Notes: generated by a model from the sequence alone, not told the origin. Positions 24,819 to 43,504 are shown, counted from the whole stretch's first letter. The stretch is 62,438 nucleotides of DNA, filler included, from Bdellovibrionota bacterium (GCA_963169515.1; 5 parts of 5 records of this genome joined end to end with filler, not necessarily neighbours in it), one strand, 5' to 3'. Numbers and translations are program-made.

Positions 24819-25730
24819 ATGATCGAAATAACCAATTTGACGAAAAGCTATGGCACATTAAAAGCCATTGATCGACTGAATTTCAAAGTAAATAAAGGTG
24901 AAATCGTCGGTTTTTTGGGTCCCAATGGTGCCGGCAAATCAACAACGATGAAAATTATCACAGGCTTTATGCCCCCAACAGATGGCATGGTCAAAGTGAG
25001 CGGTTTTGATGTTTTCGAGGATCCGATTGAAGTTAAAAAGCGAATCGGGTATTTGCCCGAGACCCCACCGCTATACACAGATATGTATGTGCAAGACTAT
25101 TTGGCATATGTTGCAAAATTGAAAGGTGTCACAAAGGGCAAAGTTAAAAATGGCGTTGATACGGCACTTCAGAAGGCAAATTTGCAGGACGTTCGAAAAA
25201 GAATGATTCGCAACTTGTCCAAGGGTTACAGACAGCGGGTCGGGATTGCCCAAGCGATTGTATCTGACCCTGAAATTTTGATTCTGGACGAGCCCACAGT
25301 GGGACTCGACCCAAAACAGGTTGCCGAAATTCGCACTTTGATTCGGAGTCTTGCGGGACACCATACTGTCGTTTTAAGTACACACATTCTTTCTGAGGTT
25401 CAGGCTATTTGCGAACGAATTATTATTATTAATAAAGGGAAAATTGTCGCAGAAGATACCCTTGAGGGCTTGAACCGCCGTATGTCTGGTGTGACCCGGT
25501 TGGTATTGAAAATAAAACGTCCGAACCAAGAATTTGAAAAGTCACTGAAAGATATGAGTGGTGTCGTTCATTGTTCTGGGGGGCACGGGCTCTACAGCCT
25601 TGACATTAACGATGCTCAATCAATGCCTGAAAAAATCGCCGAACACGCGGTGAAATCAAACGTCGGTCTTCTTGAGATGAAGTCGCAAGATATGAACCTG
25701 GAAGATATCTTCATTAAACTCACATCGTGA
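24819..25730 (+). CDS. ABC transporter ATPase, GldA-like
   Basis: GPNGAGKST, LSKGYRQRVG, LDEPTVGLDP. Confidence 0.93.
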   Translation: MIEITNLTKSYGTLKAIDRLNFKVNKGEIVGFLGPNGAGKSTTMKIITGFMPPTDGMVKVSGFDVFEDPIEVKKRIGYLPETPPLYTDMYVQDYLAYVAKLKGVTKGKVKNGVDTALQKANLQDVRKRMIRNLSKGYRQRVGIAQAIVSDPEILILDEPTVGLDPKQVAEIRTLIRSLAGHHTVVLSTHILSEVQAICERIIIINKGKIVAEDTLEGLNRRMSGVTRLVLKIKRPNQEFEKSLKDMSGVVHCSGGHGLYSLDINDAQSMPEKIAEHAVKSNVGLLEMKSQDMNLEDIFIKLTS

Positions 25731-25752
25731 AATTTATTTAAAGGAATAACAA

Positions 25753-26526
25753 ATGAAACCAACACTTACTATTTTTTGGAAAGAACTCAAAGGACATCTG
25801 ACTTCGCCAAGCTACTATGCGATCACATTTTTCTATACATTGCTAATGAGCTACATTTACTTTGTTCAGCTGCGAAGCTTTTCCCAAAGATCGCTTCAGT
25901 ACATGATACAAAGCCAAGGTCGCGGCGATGGGCTCAACCTTCATCAGCAGGTTATAGCAGGCCATATTTCATTTATTAATCTGATCTTTCTGTTTTTAGT
26001 CCCGATTATTACAGTGAAATATTTTACAGAAGAAAAGAAGGCTCGTACGTTTGATTTATTGCTGACGAGTCCGATCACAGCGACTCAAATTGTAATGGGG
26101 AAAATGATGGCAGCCATTGCGGCCACGTGGATCTTGGTTGCAATCTCGTTGATTTTTCCAGTCGTGACGAGCTTATTTGCGCAAATCCAATGGGGAGTTT
26201 TGGCATCTTCTTATATCGGTATTTTTCTGCTCGCTGCAATTTATGCATCCATCGGGGTATTTGCTTCGAGCCTCACGGACTCTGTTCTGGTTTCCGGTTT
26301 TATGGGAATTATTTTGTGCTTGTTTACTTGGTTTGTATCTTGGGGCAGTGAGATCTCGGAAAACCCATTGATGCAAGAGATTTTCGGTTACCTTTCGATT
26401 GCAAAACACTTTGGGCAGTTTATTCAAGGATCTGTTGAGATTGTGGGGTTTGCGTTCTGTTTCAGTTTGATTTTCTTTTTTGGATTCATCACACAAAGGG
26501 TGGTTGAATCGGCTCGGTGGAGGTAG
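25753..26526 (+). CDS. ABC-2 permease, GldF-like
   Basis: KELK..TSP and EEK..TFDLLLTSP motifs; 6 TM. Confidence 0.88.
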   Translation: MKPTLTIFWKELKGHLTSPSYYAITFFYTLLMSYIYFVQLRSFSQRSLQYMIQSQGRGDGLNLHQQVIAGHISFINLIFLFLVPIITVKYFTEEKKARTFDLLLTSPITATQIVMGKMMAAIAATWILVAISLIFPVVTSLFAQIQWGVLASSYIGIFLLAAIYASIGVFASSLTDSVLVSGFMGIILCLFTWFVSWGSEISENPLMQEIFGYLSIAKHFGQFIQGSVEIVGFAFCFSLIFFFGFITQRVVESARWR

Positions 26527-26529
26527 GTC

Positions 26530-28068
26530 ATGAGTAAAATAAGTAAAATTTTAATCGGCGTTGCGTTTCTGACTCTCGTTGGTGGAATGGCTCTTAAAAA
26601 TTACTTTCCTCAACCGTGGATGCAATGGATTCCGTTGGCCTCTTTTTTGGCATGTATTGCTGCTGCAGTGGCTCTCGATTTTGCATTTTTTAAAGATTTT
26701 TTTGGGTTGCGCACAACTCGACATGGAATGAATATGGGGACTTTAATTATTCTCGTATTAGTCGTTCTTGGCGGGGTTAACTTTGTTGCATTTAATAGAA
26801 ACAAAAAGTGGGATTTAACAGAAGAGCATTTAAATACGCTTTCGCCTCAATCCATCAAAATAGTAAAAGATTTGAAGGGCGATGTTACAATGATGGGTTT
26901 TTTTGTCGAAAACTCTGAACAAGAAATTCGAAAAAAAGGAATGTTTCAAATCATTGGAAAACTATTTACTGATGAGACAAATAAAATTTCAATTCAGATA
27001 TGGGATCCTCAAAAACGCCCTGATTTAGCAAAGCAGTATGGCGTCGAGATGTCTGGCACTATCGTGTTATCCATGGGCGGAAAGCAAAGTAGTGTAACTG
27101 ACGCTACGGAAGAGAGTCTTGTAAATGCGCTTGTAAAATTATCCCGCGAAAAAAATAAGGTTCTCTATTTTCTATCGGGTCATGGTGAGATCGATTTATC
27201 GAACAATGAAGCGCAAGGAGGATCCAATTTTAAAAAAGCCTTGGAAGATGCTAGCTACGAGGTGAAATCTTTGAATCTTGTAGAGCAGCCAACGCTACCA
27301 TCTGATGCCGAAGCGATCGTCGTATTGGGGCCGAAGCGCGAACTGTTGCCGGCAGAAAAAAACATTATTTTGGAATATATGAAAAAAGGTGGAAAAGCGT
27401 TGTTTGCCGGAGATCCGGGGGAGCATCACAATTTGGCACAGATGATGACCCCATTTGGAATTTCGTTTGATAACAATTACATCATTGATCAAATGGGTCA
27501 GCTGATTGGCGCCAGTGCAGCCATGGCAATTGGTCTGATCTATTCGCCCAATAGCGATATCACAAAAGACTTTGGCAAGAATATGTCTGGGTTTCAGTTA
27601 GCGTCATCGCTTTCAAAAATTCAACAGGCGGGCCAAAATTTTGCTTATGATGAAATTGTGAAGTCTTCGCCCGCAAGCTTTTCAAAAGCAAAAATTGGTT
27701 CGGAAGTACGTTTTGACGAAAAGACCGATAAAAAAGGACCGTTTGCAATTGGATATAAAGTATCTGGAATTTGGCCTGGCGAGGAAAAGGATAAAAAGGA
27801 ATTTTCGGCATTGTTTTATGGCGACAGCGACTTTTTTACGAACCAATTATTGAATTTTCAATTAAACAGAGATTTAGCATTGAATAGCATTTCATTTCTT
27901 GCAAAAGATTCTGAGCTTATCAGCGTGCGTCCAAAACAAATGAAGGGAACGACCCTTACGATGACTGACAACCAGTCTGCATTGGTTACCTGGGCGTTTT
28001 TTGTTCCATTTCCGTTTTTATTTTTGCTTATTGGAGGGTACTTCTGGCTTGCGAGGAGGCATGCATGA
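26530..28068 (+). CDS. GldG-family ABC accessory protein
   Basis: WDLTE...TLS.QS, YFLSGHGE, GDSDF..N, N.DL.LN motifs. Confidence 0.88.
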   Translation: MSKISKILIGVAFLTLVGGMALKNYFPQPWMQWIPLASFLACIAAAVALDFAFFKDFFGLRTTRHGMNMGTLIILVLVVLGGVNFVAFNRNKKWDLTEEHLNTLSPQSIKIVKDLKGDVTMMGFFVENSEQEIRKKGMFQIIGKLFTDETNKISIQIWDPQKRPDLAKQYGVEMSGTIVLSMGGKQSSVTDATEESLVNALVKLSREKNKVLYFLSGHGEIDLSNNEAQGGSNFKKALEDASYEVKSLNLVEQPTLPSDAEAIVVLGPKRELLPAEKNIILEYMKKGGKALFAGDPGEHHNLAQMMTPFGISFDNNYIIDQMGQLIGASAAMAIGLIYSPNSDITKDFGKNMSGFQLASSLSKIQQAGQNFAYDEIVKSSPASFSKAKIGSEVRFDEKTDKKGPFAIGYKVSGIWPGEEKDKKEFSALFYGDSDFFTNQLLNFQLNRDLALNSISFLAKDSELISVRPKQMKGTTLTMTDNQSALVTWAFFVPFPFLFLLIGGYFWLARRHA

Positions 28069-29450
28069 AGTTTAAATCCACGGGAATCTTTGCAGCTCTT
28101 GTAGTTGCATTTGGGGCTTATGTTTATTTTGTTGAATACAGGGGGACTCAACAAAAAGAAGAAAAAAAACAGGAACAAGCAAAAATTCTGAATTATAAAC
28201 CAGAAGACGTTCAATCTTTTTCAATTCAAAAAGAAAAGGAAATTATTAAAGTGGATCGAAGCAGGGATGGTTGGGTGATGACATCGCCAGCCAAAGATCA
28301 AGGCTATAAAACAGGCATTGAAGAATTCCTAAAGGCACTTTTCGTTGAAAAATCAGATGGCGTGGCGGCTGAAGGTACGACCATCGATTGGAATATTTTT
28401 GGACTGGATAAACCAAAGGCTACATTCGAATTAAAATTAAAAGACAAGACCGTAAAATTAGAATTGGGTACAGTGATCGGTGTTGCGGGTAAGCGATATG
28501 TGCGCTTGGATGGGCAAAACAAAGTAGAAATGGTTACAGGGTCCATTGATACTCAATTGGAAAAACCTGCAAAGGATTTCAGAGAAAAATCTATTTTCCG
28601 CATCTCAAAAGATAAAGTCACAAAGGTAAAGGTGATGTCTGGTGAGGCTACATCTTTTGTTGTGGACAAGGTTAATAACGATTGGGCCATTGAAGGAAAT
28701 TACAAGGCGGATTCCGACAAGTCTGCCATTCAAAATTATGTGAATGATATTTCGATTATGGAGGCCCAAGATTTTAGTTCCGAAGACAAATATAAATTTC
28801 AAATTGGAAAATTGACAAACCAGGTTGAGCTCGATCTGGATGATGGGACCAAGATTAGTGCACAGGTTTACAAGCACACGGGCGATAAGTTCTATATGAC
28901 GGTGGCGGATAAGCCAACGGTTTATGAGCTAGCCAAAAGAAATTTTGATTTATTTTCTAAAACTGTGAGCGATTTGCGCGACAAAAGAAAGCCGTTTCAA
29001 TTTGAAGAATCAAAAGTGAGCCAGATAGATTATAAAACGGAAGGTTTTGATCTAAACTTAAAAAAAGATGGAGAGAAATGGACTTCTAAGGAGCCAGTAA
29101 ACAATGACAAGGTCCACGAGCTTTTTAATATGTTAAAGGGCTTGCAAGTTCAAAAGTTTTATGGAAAGTCATCTGCCGGTATGTATCGGCCAAAGGGTAC
29201 AATTACCTTGAAAGATCAAGCGGGTGGCGTCGTTTTGGATCTCAAATGGGGCAATGACGACAAAAAAGATGCCGTTACGGTTGTAAAGACAAATAAGCAT
29301 GAGGAACTTTTTGGTATCGCAGATTCAGTTGTTGCGAGCCTTCCAGGAAAAATGCTGCTAGAGTCTGAAAATAAGCCAGTAAAAAAATCGGCGACAGAAG
29401 GTCAAGAGGTCCATGGCAAAGATCCGAGTAACGAGTCCGACGCGAATTGA
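28065..29450 (+). CDS. DUF4340 domain protein
   Basis: N-terminal TM; FGLDKP, DFREK/DLRDK repeated modules; usual fourth gene of gldAFG-like operons. Confidence 0.8.
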   Translation: MKFKSTGIFAALVVAFGAYVYFVEYRGTQQKEEKKQEQAKILNYKPEDVQSFSIQKEKEIIKVDRSRDGWVMTSPAKDQGYKTGIEEFLKALFVEKSDGVAAEGTTIDWNIFGLDKPKATFELKLKDKTVKLELGTVIGVAGKRYVRLDGQNKVEMVTGSIDTQLEKPAKDFREKSIFRISKDKVTKVKVMSGEATSFVVDKVNNDWAIEGNYKADSDKSAIQNYVNDISIMEAQDFSSEDKYKFQIGKLTNQVELDLDDGTKISAQVYKHTGDKFYMTVADKPTVYELAKRNFDLFSKTVSDLRDKRKPFQFEESKVSQIDYKTEGFDLNLKKDGEKWTSKEPVNNDKVHELFNMLKGLQVQKFYGKSSAGMYRPKGTITLKDQAGGVVLDLKWGNDDKKDAVTVVKTNKHEELFGIADSVVASLPGKMLLESENKPVKKSATEGQEVHGKDPSNESDAN

Positions 29451-30408
29451 TTTGGCGGGCGGTACGCTAGATTTGTGGCCGCTTTACACATTTTTAAATG
29501 GTGCAGTCACAGTTAACATGGCCGTAAATATATTTACGTATGTTGAAATTGAAGAATTGCCTGGTCCACAGATTATATTAGATCTTAAGAACATTGGCTT
29601 TAAGAAAACATTTGCAAACGCAAAGCAATTATTCGACTTTAAGAATGAAAAGACACACTTTATACGTCCGCATATAAGATTTTGGAAACCGGAAACAGGC
29701 TTGAAAATCACTATTGATTCTGAAAGTCCCGTAGGGGGCGGTCTTGGTGGCAGTTCATCCATTACGGCAGGCCTTTCAAAAGCGTTCAGCGAACTCTATG
29801 GGAAAAACCTGCAAGATATCGAACTTGTTCGGCTGTCTCATAATCTTGAGGCGGAAATTTTAAGAACACCAACGGGGACTCAAGATTACGTTCCGGCGCT
29901 GCGTGGTGGTCTAAATATTCTTCGATATGAAATGGATAACCTTCATTTAGAAACTCGTTATTTCCCGAATGACATTCTACAGAAAAAGGGGTTTTTGGTC
30001 TATACGGGTAAGCCCCATAATTCTGGTCTGAACAATTGGGAGGTTTTGAAGAAGGCGATCCAAGGCCACAGATCAACCCTTAAATGTTTAAATCAGCTTG
30101 GGTTGATTTCAAATCGAGTAAAGGATGCCTGTATTGATGAAGACTGGGATAGCCTAGAAGATCTTTTTGATGAGGAATATAAATGGAGAACGTCTCTTAC
30201 GCCTGCATTTACAAGCCCTCAAATTAAGAAGATTAAAAAGATGGTGGGGAACAGGGGAGCTGTAAAGATTTGTGGAGCTGGTGGCGGCGGGTGTGTGTTA
30301 ATATGGTCAGAAAAGAAGCAAGAGGTGCTGGAAAAATGCCGAAAGCACGGGTTCAAGGTCTTCGACATAAAGGTCGTGGACAATGGTTGCCAGATTCAAA
30401 AGAGCTAA
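29413..30408 (+). CDS. GHMP-family sugar kinase (HddA-like)
   Basis: PTRIDLAGGTLD, PVGGGLGGSSS, GTQDY, KICGAGGGG. Confidence 0.9.
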   Translation: MAKIRVTSPTRIDLAGGTLDLWPLYTFLNGAVTVNMAVNIFTYVEIEELPGPQIILDLKNIGFKKTFANAKQLFDFKNEKTHFIRPHIRFWKPETGLKITIDSESPVGGGLGGSSSITAGLSKAFSELYGKNLQDIELVRLSHNLEAEILRTPTGTQDYVPALRGGLNILRYEMDNLHLETRYFPNDILQKKGFLVYTGKPHNSGLNNWEVLKKAIQGHRSTLKCLNQLGLISNRVKDACIDEDWDSLEDLFDEEYKWRTSLTPAFTSPQIKKIKKMVGNRGAVKICGAGGGGCVLIWSEKKQEVLEKCRKHGFKVFDIKVVDNGCQIQKS

Positions 30409-31214
30409 AGATAGACCGATTTATCGGCCTTTCACTGTCTGGCGGTAAGAACGACAAAACCAGCCTATGTTATCTTGATTATTATCGGGCCCCGCATAAA
30501 CTTTTTCTTAAAACTGTTATTGATAAGATACCGGAAAGAGAAAATGAATCGCCAGATGATATTCTGCTAGAGTATTTAAATAAAAAAGATTTGAACTTAA
30601 GATATATCGGTGTTGATGTTCCAATAACGCTACCGCACTGTTTTTTGCATCCATGCAAGGGGGTACGTCAGTGTGATTCTGCAACTACTCAATGGCATTG
30701 GAAAAATTATAAGAAGTTAAAGGACAAAAATAAAAATCATAAACTCTTTACGCCCTACACAGAGCGCTGTGTGGATTCGTATGTCACGTATCATTTAGAG
30801 GAGCACTTTCCAATTTCGCATGCATTGGGATCAAATAGTGCGCCGTTGGCGGCACGGGCACATTTTTTAAAAAATCGAATAAAATATGAAATGATTGAGG
30901 TTTACCCAAGACTTTCTTTTTGGAGAATGGGATTAAAACTAAAGATGAATAAAAATCAGTTGCGTTTTTATAAGCATTCGGCGCGTGGGGATCAGGTGCG
31001 CGAAGGTTTTCTTCGAGAATTGATAAATCAAAATATTATTTTTATTTATGATCAGGATATTCAAAAACTTTTGTCAAAAATGTCCACTTTTGATGCATTC
31101 ATGAGCGCATTAACAGCATTTCTTTATTTTAAAGATCAGTGTGAGAAACCCCCAAAAAATTTTCCTGCATCAGAAGGTTGGATACAATTTCCACAAAAAG
31201 AATTTTCTTGGTGA
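30387..31214 (+). CDS. DUF429-like predicted RNase H-fold protein; start uncertain
   Basis: FIGLSLSGGK, GVDVP, IEVYPR, FDA..AL.A and EGWI motifs. Confidence 0.65.
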   Translation: MPDSKELKIDRFIGLSLSGGKNDKTSLCYLDYYRAPHKLFLKTVIDKIPERENESPDDILLEYLNKKDLNLRYIGVDVPITLPHCFLHPCKGVRQCDSATTQWHWKNYKKLKDKNKNHKLFTPYTERCVDSYVTYHLEEHFPISHALGSNSAPLAARAHFLKNRIKYEMIEVYPRLSFWRMGLKLKMNKNQLRFYKHSARGDQVREGFLRELINQNIIFIYDQDIQKLLSKMSTFDAFMSALTAFLYFKDQCEKPPKNFPASEGWIQFPQKEFSW

Positions 31215-31555
31215 GGGAACACTGACCTGCTTACATCCATGTGTTGGCATGAACCGCCAAGAAAAAGCGCAAAAGGTTCGTGCAAACCTAACAAAACTTG
31301 CTGAGGCAAGTGACACGGCCAATCGTTTCTGAATATCTCCAAAAAATATAAGATTGGAGAATCGTCTTTTTAGAGAACGACAAGAGAGCGACGCAGCGTT
31401 TCGTCCCCATGCAGAAGCGATGCGTTAACAATAAGGTAAGGTTACCCAATTTCTTTAAGGTTTTAGTCACGACGAAGCTAAACTTTAGAGAAAGAGAGGT
31501 CCTGTTTTAGAATAAAAGATTGCGCTTTTATTGCGGGAGGTTATTATTTAATATA

Positions 31556-31867
31556 GTGGAAAAAGAAGAAATAATAAGACAGTCACGACGAAGTTTTTTA
31601 GCGAACTCAGGTAAGTCGCTTGCTTTATTAATGGTAGCTAATGCTGGACTTTATGTTGTGGGTTCTGCATTTAAAAAATTGGATGGAAGCCTGGTGGCGG
31701 GTGCGAAATGGTGTGAGTGCAAAGTTTGGAGCCAAAACGGCTTTTGCGGTTATACTGGAATAACGACAAGCGCAGACTATTATACTATCGATGTAGTTGG
31801 TTCAAGCTGTAGTGGGGCAAGCTGTTCTACCGGCACTAGTCGAGTTTCGAACTGCCGTCTGCCTTAA
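31556..31867 (+). CDS. Small twin-arginine-signal, Cys/Ser-rich peptide; candidate precursor
   Basis: SRRSFL Tat motif, hydrophobic stretch, ..LVAGA| and then a C-terminal core with 6 Cys. Confidence 0.7.
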   Translation: MEKEEIIRQSRRSFLANSGKSLALLMVANAGLYVVGSAFKKLDGSLVAGAKWCECKVWSQNGFCGYTGITTSADYYTIDVVGSSCSGASCSTGTSRVSNCRLP

Positions 31868-31971
31868 CTCTATTTTTGAGCCTAACTTCAATTAGATCGT
31901 TTTCAATAAAAGTACTGCTATATAAAATAAATTAGTAACTTTGCTAAATTAAAAGCTACAGTTTAAAGAGA

Positions 31972-32901
31972 ATGAGTCTAAATCTTACAAAAAGTAATCA
32001 TTTTGAATTTGAGTCAGCAGGTACCGAAAAAGAAAGAAAATTTTTTGTTAAAATCGGGGTACCTGAAAATTATGGTCAAAATTTTCAGCCAATGCAATTT
32101 GCACAGTCTGTGGCAGATGCTCGGTATTTCGCCGATATTAATGAATCAAAAAAAATTATTCTTTGTCTTTCAGGCGGGGTGGACAGCGAGGCCATGTGCA
32201 GGGCGTTTATCGCTGCAAAAGTAAATTTTCAAGCTTGTTTTTTGAGATTTAAAAATAATCTAAATATGTTCGATTTAAAAACCAATATTGATTTCTGTGA
32301 TGCAAACTCGATTAAATATTCTTTTGTTGACCTAGACATCATAGATTTTCTTGAATCTGGAAAGTATTTTAGCGTTGCTCTTAAATATGAATGTCAGTCA
32401 CCCCAAATTGCGACTCATTTGTGGTTTTTGGATCAAATCGATTCTATTCCATGTTTGAGTGGAAATCCGATAGTTCCGGTTTGGCAAAATGAGAAATGGT
32501 TTATCGTTGGCTTACCGGGAGAACTCCATTCAACTTACTTTAAGTATTTTTATATTAATAACCGAGAGGGAATACCTTGGTTTTTTATATATTCACCGGA
32601 ACTGATCAAATCATTTTTCAGCCTTCGCTGCATGAGACCGTATCTAGATAAGAAAATTACACAGCCAAGCCAATATACTTACCTAGAAAAATGTAAAAGC
32701 TATTTAGAGGGCGGCTTTTTAGTGAAACCAAGAGAAGATAAGTTCACGGGATTTGAGCTTGTAAAAAAATACTACGACGAAAGACATAAAACAACGCATG
32801 GTCAGGCATTTAATAATTTATTTAGAAAGCCCTTGGAAGAGATTTTTCCATTTCCTGACGAGTATTTCCAAATAATTCCAAAAGAATATTTTGATGGATA
32901 A
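31972..32901 (+). CDS. PP-loop (adenine nucleotide alpha-hydrolase/asparagine-synthetase-like) protein without a glutaminase domain
   Basis: LCLSGGVDSE PP-loop; C-terminal K-x-TGFE. Confidence 0.75.
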   Translation: MSLNLTKSNHFEFESAGTEKERKFFVKIGVPENYGQNFQPMQFAQSVADARYFADINESKKIILCLSGGVDSEAMCRAFIAAKVNFQACFLRFKNNLNMFDLKTNIDFCDANSIKYSFVDLDIIDFLESGKYFSVALKYECQSPQIATHLWFLDQIDSIPCLSGNPIVPVWQNEKWFIVGLPGELHSTYFKYFYINNREGIPWFFIYSPELIKSFFSLRCMRPYLDKKITQPSQYTYLEKCKSYLEGGFLVKPREDKFTGFELVKKYYDERHKTTHGQAFNNLFRKPLEEIFPFPDEYFQIIPKEYFDG

Positions 32902-33370
32902 ATATTTAAAAGTTAACCCAATTACTTTTGAAGAAACTTTACCAATCTGGAGTAAACATCTATGGCCGGGAAGAAAATCTGATATTGAACAAGTAAGTTG
33001 TATTAATCAAGTCGGAGATATTGATGTTGAAATTAAAAACTTTTCCCCAGAGTTTTATGGCTGTTTTCTTAAAGAAGAAATGGCTGGGGTTATTAGTTGC
33101 CACCCAATAAATAAAAAAGTGCTAAGATTGCGTGGAATTTATGTTTTTGAAAAATTTAGGAAAAATGGAGTGGGTAGTTTGTTGATACGTATGGTAAAGC
33201 AAAGAGCTTTTGAAGTGGAATGTCAAAACGTATTTGGGTTGGTGAGAACAATAAACCAACCTTATTTTGAGCGGCATGATTTTGCCGCCTATAAAAGCAT
33301 CTCTGGATATGAATATGGACCGCATGTCTTAATGGGGTTGGGCCTGAATTCCCTGGCCACTCCTCTCTAA
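32891..33370 (+). CDS. GNAT N-acetyltransferase
   Basis: [17 protein letters not shown] acetyl-CoA motif; overlaps the upstream gene. Confidence 0.88.
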
Positions 33371-34764
33371 TCACAGAAATATTTTACTTCGACCTGTGTT
33401 CCGATTGGCGGATATGGTTTTAGTACAAGTTTTTTTCCATCTACAGTGTGAGAAATTGGTGGGATAGGAGTTGGCGAGTAGCTCACCTCAACTGAACCTG
33501 TTGGTACGCACTTCAACATGGCAGTAAAGGCTTCTTTTTTAATTGATTCGCCAATTGCTTTTAGTTCATTCCCATAATCTTTCGAACATATGTCACCAAC
33601 GATACCGTTAGTTTTTTTCGATAACTCGATGTACGTCTTCCCGACGTAGTGGCTACCAACCTGTTTGCAATTTTTCTTGCTCTCTGGTTTCAATAAAACA
33701 ATTGAGTGATGCGTAAATGTTTTCTTAGAATCCCATTTATTTTTAATATGATTCATTAAAGTCTCTGGCTTATTTTTCAGACCAAGATGCGTGCCATTGC
33801 TGCGCTCATCTTCGTCAGACACGATAATGGTGGCCAAATGCGCACGTTCCCGAAAGGCATAGCTGTATTCTTTTCGTTCCAACAGAAGATTGAGTGCCTT
33901 GATTCCCTCTTCTCTCGAGGATCCAGTTTCTCTTCTTCTAATGGTATTTCCGAAAATTTGTTCTACTTTTGGAATACTGCTATTGATAAGGTAGGTTTTG
34001 TTTAAGCCTACGAAAGGCACAAGACGGCCTTCCTCCCATTCCTTTTTGCCTGAGGCATCTGTTGTGATAATTCCCAACTGCCAATCAAGACCGCTCAGTT
34101 TACTTACAAATGTTGAAAAGCGAGATGCCATTTTTTTCTGTTCTTCTCTCATCGATGGTGAGTTGTCGACAACTATAACAATATCAATTTTATCACCCGA
34201 GCTATCTATTACAAATTGATCGACAACCGGTATGCTCACATGAATCACTTGCCATCGGTGACGGTCTGGCTCGCTTGAAAGTCCCATATTATCGACGGCA
34301 ATGACTTCGAACAAATGAGATCCAATATCCAAATTTGCAAATGTCCAAGGACTTGCACAATCAAACCAGGCATTGTTGTCAAGGCGACAACGGTAGAAAC
34401 TAATCGATCCGTCGAGGTCGGTTCCAACAAATTCAAATTCGGCGTTCGGATTTGACGTTGTGGCCTCTGGAGCTTTGATAATTTGCACTGATGGAGGGGT
34501 TGGCGGGAATGGAGTCGGCTCTGGAGTTGGAATTGGAGTAGGCTCTGGAGTTGGAACTGGGGTAGGCTCTGGAGTTGGAACTGGAGTTGGAATTGGGGTA
34601 GGCTCTGGAGTTGGAATTGGAGTAGGCTCTGGAGTTGGAATTGGGGTAGGCTCTGGAGTTGGAACTGGAGTAGGCTCTGGAGTTGGAACTGGGGTAGCCT
34701 CTGGAGTTGGAACTGGAGTAGGCTCTGGAGTTGGAACTGGGGTAGGCTCTGGAGTTGGAACTGG
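33367..34764 (-). CDS. Secreted-type protein, 5' truncated: Pro/Thr linker, Ig-like domain, vWA domain
   Basis: Frame is open to the contig end: (EPTPVPTP)n, then CRLD..W.DCASP..G.H.FEV.AVD, then the DNSPS MIDAS motif and SDEDE. Confidence 0.85.
34511..34764. repeat. Coding tandem repeat with a 24-bp unit, about 10 copies
   Basis: GGAGTTGGAAYTGGRGTAGGCTCT head-to-tail; encodes EPTP(V/I)PTP on the minus strand; runs into the gap. Confidence 0.92.
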
Positions 34765-37219: not shown

Positions 37220-38665
37220 TCATTGTGGAGGAGGAGGCTCACCACCACCACCGCCACCACCGCCTACGCAGGAATCGGCCATTGCCCATTCACAGAAGTA
37301 CTTACCGTTATTAACGCTGATTGTTCGACCTGATGTACTTCGCATTTGAGGACATGAGTATTCCCCATAAATTTGGATGGCAACACTTTCCACGCTTGAT
37401 CCATCATTACACGGTGTAACTGCTGTGGCTCGAACCATGTTAAGTGTAACATCGCAATCGCCGTTTTTGTTGTAGTTTTCATTCAGCAGTGCTTGAGCTG
37501 GCGTTTCGTCAACAGTACTTACAGAGTATTGCGCATTTCGAACGCTAATACCGTTAGCTTCTGTGAATGATTGCAGGCCATTGGCGCCCGTGTCCGGAAT
37601 GTTCTGGACACTTAAGCTAAGCCCATGTTTGTACACACCCTCTGATCCCGTGTAATCGCTCTCGTCTTGGTAATAGTTTTTACCAGAGATTGCAAATGTT
37701 GCGACAGCACCATTTCTGTTGTAATCGCAATCCATGAGATCATCGTCTCGCTCATCCGGATACATAGATACGCCGGTCTCATTATTTGCACGTTGTGCAT
37801 TTGCGGTATTGATACCAGAGATATCACCCTCGATTAACCAATGGTCTTGAGGGGAAGATGGCTCTGCATCGGCAAATGTTTGAACATCAATGTTCACGCG
37901 GCTCACGATATCGGCTTCAACACCACAGCCGTTCTTAACACGAGCTTTAACCTGATAGTTCGTACCACCGTTGGCGATATAAACGTCAGGTAAAGAAGTT
38001 AAGTTTGTCCATACGTTAAAACTTCTTCGATCGAGAGGATCAAAGTCACCATCACCATTAAAGTCGTAGGCGTACTGTAACTGGGTTCCAGAAGCATCAG
38101 ATACACCACCGACAGACACGGCAAAATGGTTCACGCGTGCGCCTGCAACTACGTTAATAGCGGCATTCGATACGTCTGGAGCAGTAGCGTTTGCACAGTC
38201 AACTTCAAGGTTAAAAGCTTTATCAGCAGATCTGCCTTGAGGATCAATTGCACGGATTGCCATTGTACGTCTTAGTGTCGCATCAAAACGTAGGTTACCT
38301 GTTAATGGTACGAAATTCGGGCTTCCGGCGTCGTAGTCTATATCGATTAAGAACGTCAGACTGGATGTCGGGCTTTCATCGGTAGTGGCAGCGCAATTAA
38401 ATCGAAGATCATCGACATCAGTTGGGTCACCGTATGACACATCTCCTGAGCTGACTGCCGATAATGATTTAAATATATGAGAGTCACTTGCCCTCTCAAT
38501 ATTACAGTTAATTCGCGGTGCTTGGTTCGTCGTAACCACATTAATGTCATCGGAAGCACTTGTCCGTAACATTTTCGAAGCAGAGATCGTAGATTGACCG
38601 CAGTTGTTGTACAACAACGGCAGCACAACCAACATTGCTCCTACTATTAAGTATTTCGTTTTCAT
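37220..38665 (-). CDS. Secreted/lipoprotein-like beta-rich protein with a Gly7-EPPPPQ tail
   Basis: LLYNNC signal; PKD-like YDFNGDGDFD; several Cys; GGGGGAG RBS. Confidence 0.8.
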   Translation of the reverse strand: MKTKYLIVGAMLVVLPLLYNNCGQSTISASKMLRTSASDDINVVTTNQAPRINCNIERASDSHIFKSLSAVSSGDVSYGDPTDVDDLRFNCAATTDESPTSSLTFLIDIDYDAGSPNFVPLTGNLRFDATLRRTMAIRAIDPQGRSADKAFNLEVDCANATAPDVSNAAINVVAGARVNHFAVSVGGVSDASGTQLQYAYDFNGDGDFDPLDRRSFNVWTNLTSLPDVYIANGGTNYQVKARVKNGCGVEADIVSRVNIDVQTFADAEPSSPQDHWLIEGDISGINTANAQRANNETGVSMYPDERDDDLMDCDYNRNGAVATFAISGKNYYQDESDYTGSEGVYKHGLSLSVQNIPDTGANGLQSFTEANGISVRNAQYSVSTVDETPAQALLNENYNKNGDCDVTLNMVRATAVTPCNDGSSVESVAIQIYGEYSCPQMRSTSGRTISVNNGKYFCEWAMADSCVGGGGGGGGEPPPPQ

Positions 38666-38731
38666 TATCTCCCCCTTTTTTAGGGTAATATTCAAAGCCC
38701 ATAAACAAGGCTTCCCTCAGGACTCTATTAA

Positions 38732-38747
38732 AGCAAGGCCGGTACCA
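38732..38747 (-). promoter_or_regulatory. sigma54 -24/-12 promoter
   Basis: Minus strand TGGTAC-CGGCC-TTGCT. Confidence 0.65.
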
Positions 38748-38950
38748 GCGAAAGTGCCCTAATTGGGCTTTGAGGGATCGAATTTGTCTACAACTTAGAC
38801 AGCTGCGTGATACTCCCTTAACAACACCATGAATACTTTATTTGTTACATTTTGATATAAGATCCACAGGCCCGCACGCAAATTGCCAATGCCCTCGACA
38901 TTGGTCCGCTATAGTGACATATCCTTTATCAGCGATTTAAATGAAATGTA

Positions 38951-40591
38951 TTACGGTTGGTATCTTACGAAATCTGTTTCCGACAGATTGATCATCCCAA
39001 AATTCGAAACGCCCTCTGCCCTTCGAATTACCCGACGCTCGTTAGTCGCTCTCGTGTTTTCAATAATATAAACTCTAAAGCGATCGGTAGGCGTTAAAAA
39101 GACCATATCGTCTACATTATAGTGATAGCAATCTTGCGAAACGCTCGTACTCACCATACGCCCTGTATAGCGAGTCAGTCGCAAATTCGGAACTTGGTTG
39201 TTCCTAAAATCAATAGGCGAATTGTATTTCACCTCCGCATAGTTTGAAACGCCGTCGGAATCCGGATCTAAGCTTGTTGCATTCGAAGGGTCAATCACGT
39301 TAATTCCCCACTTTACGGCCAAGCCGTCTGGAATGTAGTCCCTGTTATAATCCGGATCACGCCTATCAGAACCGATTCGAGCTTCTTCGCAGTTATTCAA
39401 ATCATCCAAATCTGTGTCCCCCATTGGTACGTTGTTACACGCGCTGGCCCGGGCTGGACAGTTCACAGTGGCGCATGGCCGACCATCCATTTGATATTCA
39501 AAACCATCACCCAACCTGTTGCCGTCAGAATCATAGGCGTTTGGATTTGAACCTAATACCAATTCTTTGTCATCAGACAAACCATCAGCATCTGAGTCTA
39601 CTTTTAAAAAATTGTCTTCCCAAACGGCATTAGAGTTAACAAGCCATAATTCTTTCAAACTGAATCTGATCGCACGCGGAGGAATAGAAAAGGCCGTGAA
39701 ATCAATGGCTTCTCCGTTTAAAAACGACATGAAAGTTCCATATCCTTCTTGAGCCATTCGGCGCAAGTAATCTTCTGCAACCGTGCTTGTAGGCGGTGTT
39801 GAGTAGTAGGCTGTATTAATTGAAATTCCGTCCACGTAATCACTTTTCGTATTTTGTAAATCCACAATCCTGCGAACGAGCGAAAGAATTTGGTTTATAG
39901 GCTGCAGTGTTGGTACTGTTGCGCCATCCTCCAAATTCATTGGTTCACCATCAGAAACAAAAAAGACGACATAGTTTGAAGCGATCTTTGTAGGTGTAAC
40001 GCCCGTATTAAAGTCCCGCTCAGCAGCAGCAATATCGTTGTTTAAAAGTGTCATCAGATCAGTCAAGGTATCGCGGTAGTTTGTCCATCCGTCATCCGCC
40101 GGATTATTTGTATCCGTGTATGGTGGTCGACCCTCGTTATCAATATAATTTATGAACGCCTGACGATCATTCGTAAATGTTTGGCCACCAAAATTTTCAA
40201 CATTTGGTTCTGTGCTAAAATTAATAAAGCTATAATATGTGCTTGCCGCATTAAAGCTTGGTTGTGTATCCAAGCCATTCAAAAATGAAACAAGGGCCGG
40301 GAATCGACGCTCACCAGTCGGATCAGTTCCAGGTAACATCACAGGGGGAACAGCTGTCGTAAATCGCCTTTGATTTGATCCCGACCTGTCTTGAATAAAA
40401 ATAAATTTTAATCGGCTTTGAATTGAATCAGAAGGCGTCGTACAGAAATCAATTCCAATTTTTGATACCGAATAAGATTTTTGAACGTAAGGTTCAATCG
40501 TAGGACTTGAGCAGTTTTGATAGGCAATCAACACAGCCATCATTAAAAATACAAGAAAAATTAACTTTGAATGTCTTAGTACCTTATTCAT
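38951..40591 (-). CDS. MtsD-like secreted vWA protein with Ca-binding (TSP3-like) repeats
   Basis: AYQNC signal; DRSGS MIDAS; SDG; DSDADG/DSDGN/DTDLDD/DPDSDG repeats; paralog of 41552-43270. Confidence 0.8.
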   Translation of the reverse strand: MNKVLRHSKLIFLVFLMMAVLIAYQNCSSPTIEPYVQKSYSVSKIGIDFCTTPSDSIQSRLKFIFIQDRSGSNQRRFTTAVPPVMLPGTDPTGERRFPALVSFLNGLDTQPSFNAASTYYSFINFSTEPNVENFGGQTFTNDRQAFINYIDNEGRPPYTDTNNPADDGWTNYRDTLTDLMTLLNNDIAAAERDFNTGVTPTKIASNYVVFFVSDGEPMNLEDGATVPTLQPINQILSLVRRIVDLQNTKSDYVDGISINTAYYSTPPTSTVAEDYLRRMAQEGYGTFMSFLNGEAIDFTAFSIPPRAIRFSLKELWLVNSNAVWEDNFLKVDSDADGLSDDKELVLGSNPNAYDSDGNRLGDGFEYQMDGRPCATVNCPARASACNNVPMGDTDLDDLNNCEEARIGSDRRDPDYNRDYIPDGLAVKWGINVIDPSNATSLDPDSDGVSNYAEVKYNSPIDFRNNQVPNLRLTRYTGRMVSTSVSQDCYHYNVDDMVFLTPTDRFRVYIIENTRATNERRVIRRAEGVSNFGMINLSETDFVRYQP

Positions 40592-41529
40592 TGTATATTT
40601 CCCTCATTATCCACAATGAACGACTGAAATTGGTTTTGCGCATTGTTCACTGACGGCAATTGAATTTCGATATTATCTAGAGCGCTTGAAGGCAGTCCCA
40701 CCTCAAATACTTTGAGACGAGATGAATCTCCATTTGTGGTTGTATATTCGTGCTCCATAATATAGACACGGACCACGTTTCCATTTGCCGTTTCCATAAC
40801 TGGCACATTAGAAATCAAAATATCATGGCAAAGATCAGTCGTATTTCCATTTTGGACATTGTAATGAGCCACGCTATATCGATAAGCCTGATCTTGTATA
40901 TCAACGGTATCTGTCAGATACATTGGTGTATTGGCTTTAACCTCTACCAATGCCGACCGCAAGTCGTTGTCAAAGTCAAGGCTGCTGTCGTTTGGATCAA
41001 GCGGATTTAACCCCGTACGAATTTCCAAACCATCCGGAATTCCGTCACCATCTGTATCCGGGTTATTTCTTACCGTCCTTAATACGTTTTCTTCGCAATC
41101 ATTAAGACCGTCATAGTCAATGTCGTTCTGACCTGTTAAACACGCACGCAGGTTTACCTGTTGGGCCGTTACATAACCAACAGCAATTGTGACACCGTCA
41201 GAATATTCATCCCCATTTGTATCAGCTACTGCAGATGAAATGTTATAATCATTTATATGCGCCGGTGTGTTTTCAAAATCATCGCTTAAGCCATCGCGAT
41301 CAGAATCAATTACAAAGTCTGCCGCTTGACGATTTGCTGACATATTTACCGCAAACACCTCCTGAAGGGTGAAGTCGCCGATCGGACAATACTGTTCAAT
41401 TTTAATATTTACATGCTTTCGTTCATACAGCGACGCTTGAGTGTCCAACTTGAACCCACCGCAGTTCTGAAATAAAATCAGAACGCTTAAGAGCATCATC
41501 AAAATAAACATAGCTCGAAACGATTGCAA
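40588..41529 (-). CDS. Secreted Ca-binding-repeat protein without a vWA domain
   Basis: LFQNC signal; DSDRDG/DTDGDG repeats; C-terminal CH..VRVYIME segment shared with its neighbours. Confidence 0.8.
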   Translation of the reverse strand: MQSFRAMFILMMLLSVLILFQNCGGFKLDTQASLYERKHVNIKIEQYCPIGDFTLQEVFAVNMSANRQAADFVIDSDRDGLSDDFENTPAHINDYNISSAVADTNGDEYSDGVTIAVGYVTAQQVNLRACLTGQNDIDYDGLNDCEENVLRTVRNNPDTDGDGIPDGLEIRTGLNPLDPNDSSLDFDNDLRSALVEVKANTPMYLTDTVDIQDQAYRYSVAHYNVQNGNTTDLCHDILISNVPVMETANGNVVRVYIMEHEYTTTNGDSSRLKVFEVGLPSSALDNIEIQLPSVNNAQNQFQSFIVDNEGNIQ

Positions 41530-41551
41530 GTTATCCCCTCTAGCCTCTACA

Positions 41552-43270
41552 TCAAGGCTGGTATTTTTGGAAATCCTGGTCTGTCAAATATAAATATCCA
41601 AACGCTGCGGGCACCTCTGCTCGGCGTATTACCTTTCTCGAACTCAACACTTTTGTATCCTCAATAATGTACACGCGCATTCGATCCGTGGATCCCTGGA
41701 ATACGAGGTTATGTACGTCAAAATGGTAGCAGTCTTGTGTCGCGTCCGAACTCGTCATGCGCGATGTATACTGCGTAAGTCGTAAATTCGGAACCTGGCT
41801 ATTATTTATGCCAATTGGCGAGTTGTATTTCACCTCGTTATAATCTGATAAATTGTCAACGTCTGGATCGACCGTACTGGCACTGGATGGTTCAATGACT
41901 TGAATTCCAGCTCTCAGCGCCACTCCATCAGGAATGAAATCGCTGTTCGTATCTGGATCTCTACGATCCGATTTCAACAAAACCTCTTCGCAGTCATTCA
42001 AGTCGTCTAAATCCGTGTCGACCATTCCTGCAGCCCCCAAAGGATCTCTAAATGTACTGCATTGGCTTGTACCTGTGCCCGGAGCTGCACACGTCGCATT
42101 TAAGCATGGTTTTGCGTAAAGCTTTACTTCAACCCCGTCTCCCAAACCGTTCCCATCTGAATCGTAAGCATTTGGATTAGAACCCAACGCAATTTCATCC
42201 CAATCGGAAATCCCATCCGCATCAGAGTCAGGAGCCAAATAGTCACCTTGCCAAACTGTATTGGCATCAGAGATCCACAATTCTCGAAGCGTAAAACGTG
42301 CAATTCGCGAGGGGATTGCAAATCGTGTAAAGTCAATTTCCTGGCCACCCGAGAACTCTAAGTAAGTTCCGTTGCCATCATCTGCCATTTGCTGCAAATA
42401 AGTTCTGGCAATCGGACTAAATGGATTCGAATAGTAATAGGCTGTGTTCAAAGTAATTCCGTCGACGTAATCCCGTTTAGAGTCTTGAAGCGAATTGATC
42501 TGGCGAATTTCATTTTGCAAATCGCCCAACGGCTGGACATCCAAAATACCATCCCCATTAATGTCTTGACCATCAAGGGGTTCTCCGCCAGCGATAAAAA
42601 ATATCACATAATTGCTGGCAACTTTTCGAGGGACGTCGATCACACCGTCATTGTCGGTGTCGTCACCTGTAACGCCGTTTAAAAAGTCATCTTCGGCATC
42701 GGCGATATCTTGTTCAATTATTGTGCGTGCGTCTTGTAGGGATACTTGGTAGTTACTAAAACCGCCGTCTTGGGGATTGATAAGATCGCCATAGTTTGGT
42801 CCACGCCCCTCTTGCTGAACACGGTTTCTAAATGTCTGCTTGTCAGATGTGAAGTTTTCATCCACGTTGTTGATTCGCCAATTGATAACATCCGAGTTAG
42901 TGGCAAAGTTAATCCACGAAAAATAAGTATAAGCAGGATCTGAATCGTTAAAGTTATCCAGAAAATCCACAACTGGCGCAAACCGTCGAATACCCGTGGC
43001 ATCGTTGCCTGGCAAAACTTGGCCAAATGTTGAACTTTGTGGGTCCGTATCGTACTGAATTTGATTGGAACCAGAGCGGTCCATCACAAAAATGAACTTA
43101 AGGTTACTCTTAACCGTGTCCGGGCGCGTAGTGCAAATATCCAATCCGACTTTTGAAGCTTTGTAGGCGGCCACTTTGTACTGCTCGAGTCGGATATTTG
43201 AACAGTTTTGATACAAAACTGTGATCCCTAAAACCAATATAAATGCCAAGACAAAGCGCAGACGTTTCAA
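41552..43270 (-). CDS. MtsD-like secreted vWA protein with Ca-binding (TSP3-like) repeats
   Basis: LYQNC signal; CT..P..KFIFVMDRSGS; DxDxDG repeats; TTG start after GGGGGA. Confidence 0.8.
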   Translation of the reverse strand: MKRLRFVLAFILVLGITVLYQNCSNIRLEQYKVAAYKASKVGLDICTTRPDTVKSNLKFIFVMDRSGSNQIQYDTDPQSSTFGQVLPGNDATGIRRFAPVVDFLDNFNDSDPAYTYFSWINFATNSDVINWRINNVDENFTSDKQTFRNRVQQEGRGPNYGDLINPQDGGFSNYQVSLQDARTIIEQDIADAEDDFLNGVTGDDTDNDGVIDVPRKVASNYVIFFIAGGEPLDGQDINGDGILDVQPLGDLQNEIRQINSLQDSKRDYVDGITLNTAYYYSNPFSPIARTYLQQMADDGNGTYLEFSGGQEIDFTRFAIPSRIARFTLRELWISDANTVWQGDYLAPDSDADGISDWDEIALGSNPNAYDSDGNGLGDGVEVKLYAKPCLNATCAAPGTGTSQCSTFRDPLGAAGMVDTDLDDLNDCEEVLLKSDRRDPDTNSDFIPDGVALRAGIQVIEPSSASTVDPDVDNLSDYNEVKYNSPIGINNSQVPNLRLTQYTSRMTSSDATQDCYHFDVHNLVFQGSTDRMRVYIIEDTKVLSSRKVIRRAEVPAAFGYLYLTDQDFQKYQP

Positions 43271-43295
43271 GAATCCCCCTGATGTACTATATCGG

Positions 43296-43311
43296 AGCAA
43301 TGAGGGTGCCA
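43296..43311 (-). promoter_or_regulatory. sigma54 -24/-12 promoter (consensus match)
   Basis: Minus strand TGGCAC-CCTCA-TTGCT. Confidence 0.75.
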
Positions 43312-43504
43312 CTCTAGCGCAAACACCTGCATTTTAAGCAAAAAACTCCGTAAACTTTTATACGTCTGTCAATTTGGTTATAAACAGTTGCTAAATTGCA
43401 TCAGATTGAGAAATCAAATAATATCTCATTATGAGTCATCACAGGGTTTGACATTTCAAATCACAGTAATAGAATTTACGAAATTACCAATGAGGGGGAA
43501 ATTT

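What the first reader, a model, noticed from the sequence alone, without database searches (positions are those of the whole stretch)
31556..33370. Candidate new RiPP-like cassette: Tat-signal Cys-rich peptide, stand-alone PP-loop enzyme and GNAT
Seen: a visibly AT-rich three-gene block following a housekeeping-type operon. Gene 1 encodes about 103 aa with SRRSFL, a hydrophobic helix, ..LDGSLVAGA| and a core KWCECKVWSQNGFCGYTGITTSADYYTIDVVGSSCSGASCSTGTSRVSNCRLP (6 Cys, Ser/Thr/Gly-rich, starting with Lys). Gene 2 has an SGGVDS PP-loop but no glutaminase or TilS/MnmA-type extra domains. Gene 3, a GNAT, overlaps gene 2. Known: PP-loop/asparagine-synthetase-fold enzymes adenylate carboxylates (lasso cyclases, beta-lactam synthetases), GNATs tailor RiPPs or confer self-resistance, and Tat exports folded substrates. 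Inference: a peptide modified in the cytoplasm (lactam/isopeptide and acetylation) and then Tat-exported. No lasso B peptidase or RRE is present, so this is not a canonical lasso cluster.
Basis: partly seen in the sequence, partly recalled or inferred. Interest (0 to 1): 0.72.

Follow-up and report, generated by a model that had tools for sequence, protein, structure and literature searches.

The report
Predator peptide-modifying cassette with export leader
Three genes in a predatory bacterium appear to make small, highly variable, cysteine-rich exported peptides together with an unstudied amide-bond-forming enzyme and an acetyltransferase that probably modify them before export; the chemistry is still untested.

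Summary
The window is a Bdellovibrionota genome. Gene 1 belongs to a precursor family with a conserved Tat-like leader ending in AGA and a hypervariable core: 59 of 59 distinct cores start with Lys and have 4, 6 or 8 Cys. Gene 2 folds like the synthetase domain of asparagine synthetase B / beta-lactam synthetase (Z 14), not like tRNA or cofactor PP-loop enzymes. Among 384 genomes of the order, all 7 with a genuine leader carry a close enzyme homolog, which only 11 have; 5 of the 7 are adjacent. Nine homologs are natural enzyme-RR-leader-Cys-core fusions; others are fused to the same GNAT subfamily, found in 43 of 66 enzyme-bearing versus 6 of 318 other genomes. Best model: cytoplasmic adenylation of a peptide carboxylate and amide formation (Lys lactam or amidation), then Tat export and disulfide formation. 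It is not a lasso cluster; it is a candidate new RiPP class.

The parts
31556..31867 (+). Precursor peptide gene, 103 aa (leader plus Cys-rich core)
   Evidence: (46 homologs)
31556..31705 (+). Conserved leader, residues 1-50: SRRSFL (31583-31600), hydrophobic stretch, GSAFKxLDGSxVAGA
   Evidence: R11, R12, Y33, G44, A48, G49, A50, K51 invariant in 41 of 41; RR in 55 of 55 full leaders; median leader identity 57%
31706..31864 (+). Hypervariable core, residues 51-103: Lys first, 6 Cys; boundary inferred (signal peptidase could also cut two residues earlier)
   Evidence: 59 of 59 Lys first, 59 of 59 even Cys, median core identity 25%
31972..32901 (+). Stand-alone asparagine-synthetase-like (PP-loop) enzyme, 309 aa, no glutaminase domain
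   Evidence: pLDDT 96; Z 11-14 to the AS-B clan
32170..32187 (+). PP-loop SGGVDS
   Evidence: S67, G68, G69, D71, S72 conserved in 96-100% of about 200 homologs
32731..32757 (+). REDKFTGFE motif (K257, G260, F261, E262); resembles the R-x-K-x-G-F motif of AsnB, matched by eye only
   Evidence: K257 93%, G260 98%, E262 97%; 121 of 150 family members; motif in 6 of 9 AsnB proteins
32891..33370 (+). GNAT of a distinct subfamily (W-x3-LWP-x-R-x-S-x-IE), overlapping the enzyme's stop

Best explanation
A RiPP-like pathway. The precursor's twin-arginine signal doubles as a recognition leader. In the cytoplasm the asparagine-synthetase-like enzyme uses ATP to adenylate a carboxylate of the core, most likely its C-terminus, and forms an amide. 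With no glutaminase domain and the core N-terminus still blocked by the leader, my preferred nucleophile is the epsilon-amine of the invariant Lys at core position 1, giving a side-chain-to-tail macrolactam (about 0.3 of the total). The close alternatives are amidation with ammonia or another small amine while the GNAT acylates that Lys (about 0.25), or other chemistry on the peptide by the enzyme-GNAT pair (about 0.15). The modified chain goes out through Tat, signal peptidase removes the leader at the AxA site, and the Cys pair into 2-4 disulfides outside the cytoplasm. One enzyme serves up to 6-8 different precursors scattered in a genome. SHOWN: gene content, family conservation, co-occurrence, fusions, fold class. 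INFERRED: substrate relationship, chemistry, export, cleavage, disulfides, GNAT target, biological role.
For: Leader conserved, core hypervariable (57% vs 25% median identity over 55 precursors), Lys first in 59 of 59, even Cys in 59 of 59. Of 384 genomes of the order, 8 match the leader model; the weakest (G643, E 4e-5) has no leader ORF on recheck; the other 7 all carry an enzyme at E <= 1e-99, a class of 11 genomes. Three of the 7 (G406, G483, G677) were not in the model. Adjacent in 5 of 7 (G000, G513, G176, G024, G677). Natural fusions enzyme-RR-hydrophobic-AxA-Cys core: 7 of 253 homologous proteins plus two tandem genes in complete genome G024; all 9 tails have 4 or 6 Cys and a Lys in the last 30 residues, against a second Lys in 26 of 59 free cores. 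Fold: the top 5 of 48,161 chains are AS-B (Z 14.0, 258 aligned, rmsd 4.2), human ASNS, beta-lactam and carbapenam synthetases and TsnB9 (Z 11-13.8), above LarE 9.5, NadE 9.2, TilS 7.4, QueC 7.4, MnmA 6.5 (same top 12). AS-like enzymes make lactams, C-terminal amides and nitriles on RiPPs (PMC13060819). TatC in 5 of 5 precursor-bearing genomes tested; C39 peptidase in 1 of 5, weak. Three precursors end in an S74 self-cleaving domain that would expose a new C-terminus four residues after the last core Cys (motif in PMC10769870). Distant homologs sit beside or are fused to peptide-processing genes: PqqD/RRE, YcaO, nitroreductase, radical SAM, S8 peptidase.
Against: No chemistry was tested. Most distant homologs have no Cys-rich peptide nearby: a strict scan found 3 genuine cases in 154 distinct loci, although it also missed known ones. 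4 of the 11 genomes with a close enzyme have no leader match (G484, G617, G116, G632). In fused forms the Lys is not at position 1. The acidic G-x-D-E loop of AsnB appears as SGNP or similar (by eye), and profile alignment to AsnB covers only residues 59-130, so active-site equivalence beyond the PP-loop rests on a fold match at rmsd 4-5 A. Plain Foldseek ranks LarE first, at low TM-scores of 0.3-0.4. The Lys count has ascertainment bias (Lys was invariant in the 6-sequence query). Only 4 of 41 leaders match the NCBIfam Tat model at E <= 0.1, and the window's does not. Genomes are kin, so the co-occurrence counts are not independent. If the Lys makes the lactam, the GNAT has no obvious target.
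Confidence: 0.68

Rival explanations
1. The peptide is a partner, not a substrate. Enzyme plus GNAT make or modify a small molecule or another protein (as in their tailoring-gene islands in phages and other Bdellovibrionota), and the exported disulfide-rich peptide is an unmodified effector, sensor or membrane tether that travels with them.
For: The GNAT tracks the whole enzyme family (43 of 66 vs 6 of 318 genomes), mostly where no such precursor is seen. Neighbours include desaturases, Rieske, PhyH, methyltransferase, aminotransferase and PTPS genes. AS-B clan members such as beta-lactam synthetase act on small molecules (established knowledge).
Against: Does not explain a leader far more conserved than export needs, the invariant Lys, in-frame enzyme-precursor fusions, or many variable cores per single enzyme.
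Confidence: 0.2
2. The enzyme is a dedicated ATP-binding chaperone or quality-control factor for Tat export of these cores, binding the signal like redox-enzyme maturation proteins (recalled), with no covalent change.
For: Leader conservation and the fusions fit binding; the AsnB acidic loop looks altered.
Against: PP-loop and the Lys-containing C-terminal motif are near invariant across about 200 homologs, as expected for catalysis; the GNAT link and invariant Lys remain unexplained.
Confidence: 0.07
3. The leader is a double-glycine (GA) type leader cut and exported by a C39 peptidase ABC transporter, not a Tat signal.
For: VAGA|K with Asp at -8 and Phe at -12 resembles the double-glycine consensus (recalled).
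Against: C39 domain found in 1 of 5 precursor-bearing genomes, weakly, and not in G000 or the complete G024; RR in 55 of 55 leaders with a hydrophobic stretch; three leaders end in AYGL.
Confidence: 0.03
4. Chance neighbours in a variable insertion site.
For: The site after DUF429 holds different genes in each of 5 relatives.
Against: Adjacent in 5 genomes of 3 families, fused in 9 proteins, and no genuine leader in the 373 genomes lacking a close enzyme.
Confidence: 0.02

Closest known systems
Lasso peptide clusters (lasso cyclase C, AS-like)
   Same: AS-like enzyme and a leader/core precursor; amide formation through an acyl-adenylate is the expected chemistry (PMC13060819 passages; general features recalled).
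   Different: No B peptidase or RRE in the cassette; core 36-69 aa with 2-4 Cys pairs, Lys first, no conserved Asp/Glu at 7-9; Tat-like leader; enzyme only about 300 aa.
AS-like C-terminal modifiers of RiPPs: TsrC, ScdTA (amides), PesC (nitrile, nitrilobacillins)
   Same: AS-like fold acting on a ribosomal peptide's C-terminal carboxylate (PMC13060819, passages and section 10).
   Different: PesC uses glutamine or ammonia in a canonical AS framework; this enzyme lacks the glutaminase domain and has no PF00733 match; precursors are exported Cys-rich cores.
Bufferins and oxazolins (MNIO-modified RiPPs)
   Same: Cys-rich precursors whose export signal serves as leader and is modified before export, which that paper calls highly unusual (PMC12452194 passages).
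   Different: Those use Sec signals and MNIO enzymes with conserved cores; that paper has no occurrence of Tat or twin-arginine. Here RR signal, AS-like enzyme, GNAT and hypervariable cores.
Borosins (enzyme-precursor fusions; recalled, no paper read)
   Same: Modifying enzyme fused N-terminally to its own core peptide.
   Different: Different enzyme (methyltransferase there); here a Tat-like signal lies between enzyme and core, and free precursors also exist.
Asparagine synthetase B / beta-lactam synthetase / carbapenam synthetase
   Same: Best structural matches, Z 11-14 over about 250-270 residues. UniRef and NCBI label two homologs asparagine-synthetase-related.
   Different: 8-11% identity, no glutaminase domain, altered acidic loop, different gene context.

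Membership tests
RiPP system (general) | Precursor with conserved leader and variable core | tested here: met
RiPP system (general) | Modifying enzyme genetically linked to the precursor | tested here: met
RiPP system (general) | Enzyme covalently modifies the core | not testable with these tools
   needs co-expression and mass spectrometry
Lasso peptides | AS-like cyclase | tested here: inconclusive
   AS-B clan fold, but no lasso cyclase among the listed rows and no PF00733 match
Lasso peptides | Leader peptidase B2 and RRE B1 in the cluster | tested here: not met
   cassette has three genes; flanks are DUF429, GHMP kinase and a vWA protein; the rest of the genome was not searched for them
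Lasso peptides | Short core with small N-terminal residue and Asp/Glu at position 7-9 (feature recalled) | tested here: not met
   cores 36-69 aa, Lys first, Asp/Glu at positions 6-10 in 20 of 59 only, none in the window's core
Asparagine synthetase B (glutamine-hydrolysing) | N-terminal Ntn glutaminase domain | tested here: not met
   309 aa; model has only a beta-hairpin before the synthetase domain; no such Pfam match
Asparagine synthetase B clan (works like) | Synthetase-domain fold with SGGxDS PP-loop | tested here: met
tRNA- or cofactor-modifying PP-loop families (TilS, MnmA, TtcA, NadE, LarE, QueC) | Family model over curated cut-off | tested here: not met
   best scores 11-17.5 bits against cut-offs of 21-272, PP-loop region only; Z 6.5-10 against 11-14 for the AS-B clan
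Tat substrate | S/T-R-R-x-F-L motif, hydrophobic region, AxA site | tested here: met
   RR in 55 of 55, Phe two after it in 51 of 55, best 19-residue hydropathy 1.05-1.83; Tat models match only 4 to 6 of 41 members weakly
Tat substrate | TatC-dependent export and cleavage | not testable with these tools
   TatC gene present in 5 of 5 genomes tested
Double-glycine leader / PCAT | C39 peptidase transporter in the producer | tested here: not met
   no match in 4 of 5 genomes including G000 (96% complete) and complete G024

The most novel reading that the evidence does not exclude
An undescribed RiPP class of predatory bacteria: Tat-exported, disulfide-rich miniproteins closed from a Lys side chain to the C-terminus by a minimal asparagine-synthetase-like ligase that accepts almost any core, existing both as one enzyme serving a genome-wide library of precursors and as borosin-like self-processing fusions in which the enzyme stays in the cytoplasm while an internal Tat signal exports its own tail; the same enzyme-GNAT module is reused in large phages beside S8 peptidases.
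Probability: 0.27. Interest if true: 0.87.

Novelty: new variant of a known kind. Interest (0 to 1): 0.72.

Why it matters
It gives a first testable substrate for a large unstudied enzyme family (1876 clusters at 50% identity) of Bdellovibrionota and phages. A ligase whose natural cores share only about 25% identity would be a broadly tolerant peptide-cyclising or capping tool. A signal peptide that doubles as a leader is known for Sec (bufferins) but was not found for Tat in my searches, nor was an enzyme-Tat-core fusion. Variable disulfide-rich peptides in predators may act on prey or competitors, which is untested. A cultured strain carries an adjacent pair (NCBI AGH94333.1 and AGH94334.1, Pseudobdellovibrio exovorus JSS as named by the source), so it can be tested directly.

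Tried and rejected
A single-chain model of one natural fusion gave a confident enzyme domain, a helix through the RR signal at pLDDT 70-77 and a core at 48-58; no contacts are reported, so it says nothing on docking. Independent origins of the fusion: the best tree needs 3 changes and 0 of 200 bootstrap trees hold the 9 together, but the AU test does not reject one clade (p 0.337), so I do not claim repeated origin; the tree used 49 chosen rows of the 146. Internal starts in the fusions: 3 of 4 checked have an in-frame ATG/GTG within 7 codons before the RR motif but no Shine-Dalgarno-like site; rejected as unsupported. Profile alignment to 9 AsnB proteins reached only the PP-loop region (one search was a script error). 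PDB sequence searches gave only weak PP-loop matches. No lasso cyclase appeared in the fold lists, which is inconclusive. No RNA run was listed. No match in annotated phage or plasmid collections. No Rfam match upstream; promoter and terminator counts at chance level. Atlas hits for the peptide were at the chance threshold. Earlier findings: nothing in five look-ups. Three enzyme/peptide pairs share contig length and source (1570, 6640, 13313), a hint of adjacency that I could not check and did not count. Literature: no description of this system in searches (open-access library only).

Full report
1. Observation. The three ORFs are as described: a 103-aa peptide (31556-31867), a 309-aa protein with SGGVDS (31972-32901) and a GNAT (32891-33370) overlapping it. 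All lie on one contig of a 2.38-Mb, 96%-complete genome. Named homologs are from Bdellovibrio, Pseudobdellovibrio and relatives, so the host is read as Bdellovibrionota. The block is 35.9% GC against 42.5 +/- 2.1%; 0.5% of 6957 windows are as low; the peptide gene itself is 43.9%. None of 6 genomes of the same family has enzyme, leader or GNAT, and in 5 of 5 checked the upstream operon is followed by other genes. The cassette is a sporadic insertion.

2. The enzyme. No Pfam, NCBIfam or PHROG family passes cut-off; weak scores cover only the PP-loop. It has 61 matches by single-sequence search, itself included, and 1876 clusters at E <= 0.001 by profile; relatives occur on 24 viral contigs and the Atlas neighbours are unnamed viral clusters. 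The model is confident (pLDDT 96). Against 48,161 solved chains the five best matches are E. coli asparagine synthetase B (Z 14.0, 258 residues, rmsd 4.2), human ASNS (13.8), beta-lactam synthetase (13.2), carbapenam synthetase (11.9) and TsnB9 (11.0); LarE (9.5), NadE (9.2), TilS (7.4), QueC (7.4) and MnmA (6.5) align over only 145-175 residues (one search agrees). Foldseek alone ranks LarE first with TM-scores near 0.35. Near-invariant residues are the PP-loop, N98, D101, F204, K240, K257, G260 and E262. By eye the R-x-x-K-F-T-G-F-E motif matches AsnB's R-x-K-x-G-F, while AsnB's G-x-D-E loop is replaced; profile alignment confirms only residues 59-130.

3. The peptide. A 6-sequence profile found 46 homologs among 5532 candidates. 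With the window's peptide and 13 more from genome loci, 59 distinct cores were analysed (one duplicate dropped; S74 domains cut off three; left out beforehand were other duplicates and truncated or broken copies in L156/L181, L174, L177, L179, L183, of which the apparently frameshifted L156 copy has 3 Cys). All 59 begin with Lys after A-G-A or A-Y-G-L; all 59 have 4, 6 or 8 Cys; lengths are 36-69; 36 of 59 end one residue after the last Cys. Median identity is 57% for leaders and 25% for cores (55 with full leaders); RR is present in 55 of 55. Even Cys counts point to full disulfide pairing, hence export. The leader is more conserved than a signal peptide needs, as expected of a recognition sequence (inference). 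No family library names it; Tat models match 4 to 6 of 41 members weakly.

4. Linkage. In 384 genomes of the order the enzyme family is in 66 (E <= 1e-20), in 11 at E <= 1e-99 and in 7 at E <= 1e-130. The leader model matches 8 genomes; G643 fails on recheck. The other 7 are all among the 11; 6 of the 7 closest have it (G484, 92% complete, does not). Four of the 7 supplied the model; the three new ones (G406, G483, G677) all fit. The peptide is within 450 bases of the enzyme in G000, G513, G176, G024 and G677 (whose enzyme match has internal stops), and elsewhere in G406 and G483; G406, G483 and G176 have 6, 8 and 6 leader matches, some broken. G513 has the same three-gene order as the window (L186). 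These genomes are kin, so the Fisher values overstate.

5. Fusions. Seven of 253 homologous proteins (P0056, P0060, P0061, P0075, P0077, P0078, P0080) and two tandem genes in the complete genome G024 continue in frame into RR, a hydrophobic helix, an AxA site and a core with 4 or 6 Cys; all 9 have a Lys in the last 30 residues, but not at position 1. Their leaders lack the GSAFK-LDGS-AGA motif. One origin is not rejected. Other homologs are fused to the same GNAT (P0167, P0201), to other GNAT-like domains, or to an S8 peptidase (P0134). The GNAT subfamily is in 43 of 66 enzyme-bearing genomes, including all of the top 11, and in 6 of 318 others; its model came from 14 GNATs lying near enzymes.

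6. Wider family. Of 123 and 102 neighbouring ORFs scanned (chosen from 131 and 134 listed, near-duplicates left out and a few added), many are tailoring genes: radical SAM, Asp/Asn hydroxylase, 2OG oxygenase, desaturase, methyltransferase, YcaO, nitroreductase, PqqD, SET, RimK and, in phages, repeatedly S8 peptidase. About half have no Pfam match. Most of these loci show no Cys-rich precursor, so the peptide link is shown only for the close clade and the fused forms.

7. Mechanism. AS-like enzymes adenylate a carboxylate and form an amide; on RiPPs they give lactams, C-terminal amides and a nitrile (PMC13060819). The enzyme has no signal peptide and needs ATP, so it must act before export, when the core's N-terminus is still blocked. 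The invariant Lys is then the obvious internal amine, and a closed chain would explain Tat rather than Sec. The three S74-ended precursors would self-cleave to free a C-terminus just after the core. In the fusions the enzyme precedes the RR motif and so would stay inside while the tail is exported. All of this is inference. I give 0.68 to the enzyme modifying the precursor (lactam about 0.3, amidation with GNAT acylation of the Lys about 0.25, other about 0.15), 0.2 to the peptide being an unmodified partner, and 0.12 to the rest.

8. Known systems and novelty. It works like a lasso cyclase or TsrC-type system but fails lasso membership. It resembles bufferins in using an export signal as leader and borosins (recalled) in the fusions. 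Ten searches of the open-access library showed no description; subscription papers were not covered. Papers seen: PMC13060819 passages and section 10 (supplement not seen, and its network of about 300 uncharacterised AS-like RiPP enzymes may bear on novelty); PMC12452194 passages; PMC10769870 passages; PMC12186529 one reference-list passage, not relevant; PMC11118758 term search with no occurrences; all others as listings only. Verdict: a real, conserved, apparently undescribed RiPP-like system; new variant of a known kind, interest 0.72.

Noticed in passing
P0210, P0212, P0214; L154:1507-1998: Three precursors carry a C-terminal S74 self-cleaving chaperone (SDERLK) after a 6-Cys core and have the variant leader end AYGL-K; NCBI calls one a tail fibre protein. 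S74 normally trimerises fibres, so these cores may be trimeric.
   Followed up: partly
L133:1094-2651 (G229): A distant enzyme homolog sits between a PqqD/RRE gene (Pfam E 7e-10) and a small peptidase-like ORF plus an unknown gene, with a second paralog nearby; no precursor identified.
   Followed up: partly
L129:1199-1408, L206:4616-4969, L211:2836-3177: Other small candidate precursors beside enzyme paralogs: one with IIAGG then a Gly-rich tail ending CCGAS, one RR-leader protein ending in a 4-Cys tail after LAAG, one ending AAGAPGCCNWGK.
   Followed up: no
L099, L100, L101, L104, L105, L108, L109, L110, L111, L116, L120, L044; P0134: In phage-like contigs the enzyme is repeatedly next to a large gene that is an S8 subtilase where scanned (L099, L101, L108, L109, L111, L044), and in P0134 is fused to one: a peptidase plus ligase pair with unknown substrate. 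Some loci hold 3-6 paralogs (L041, L066, L121).
   Followed up: partly
P0064, P0065, P0261, P0264, P0265, P0267: A group of homologs has a C-terminal domain of about 250 aa without a Pfam match that looks like a SAM methyltransferase (by eye).
   Followed up: no
L132:918-1355, L208:6605-7036, L210:3446-3841, L211:3213-3620: Small (130-145 aa) RR-motif proteins without Cys cores recur next to enzyme paralogs.
   Followed up: no
window 31390-31434: A short palindromic element upstream of the cassette has partial copies on contigs C27 and C7; a 13-bp direct repeat at 31465 and 31581 includes the SRR codons. No Rfam match.
   Followed up: partly
window 37220-43312 (- strand): Run of large secreted or lipoprotein-like ORFs with D-x-D-x-D-G repeats and vWA-like motifs, two of them paralogous (38951-40591, 41552-43312).
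   Followed up: no
window 24819-31214: Conserved operon: ABC transporter genes resembling gldA/F/G (by eye), a long exported protein, GHMP kinase and DUF429; the site just downstream holds different genes in each of 5 relatives.
   Followed up: partly
window 33367-34764 (- strand): vWA-containing ORF preceded by a GTGVGS/GIGVGS repeat tract cut by the contig end; probably one longer gene.
   Followed up: no
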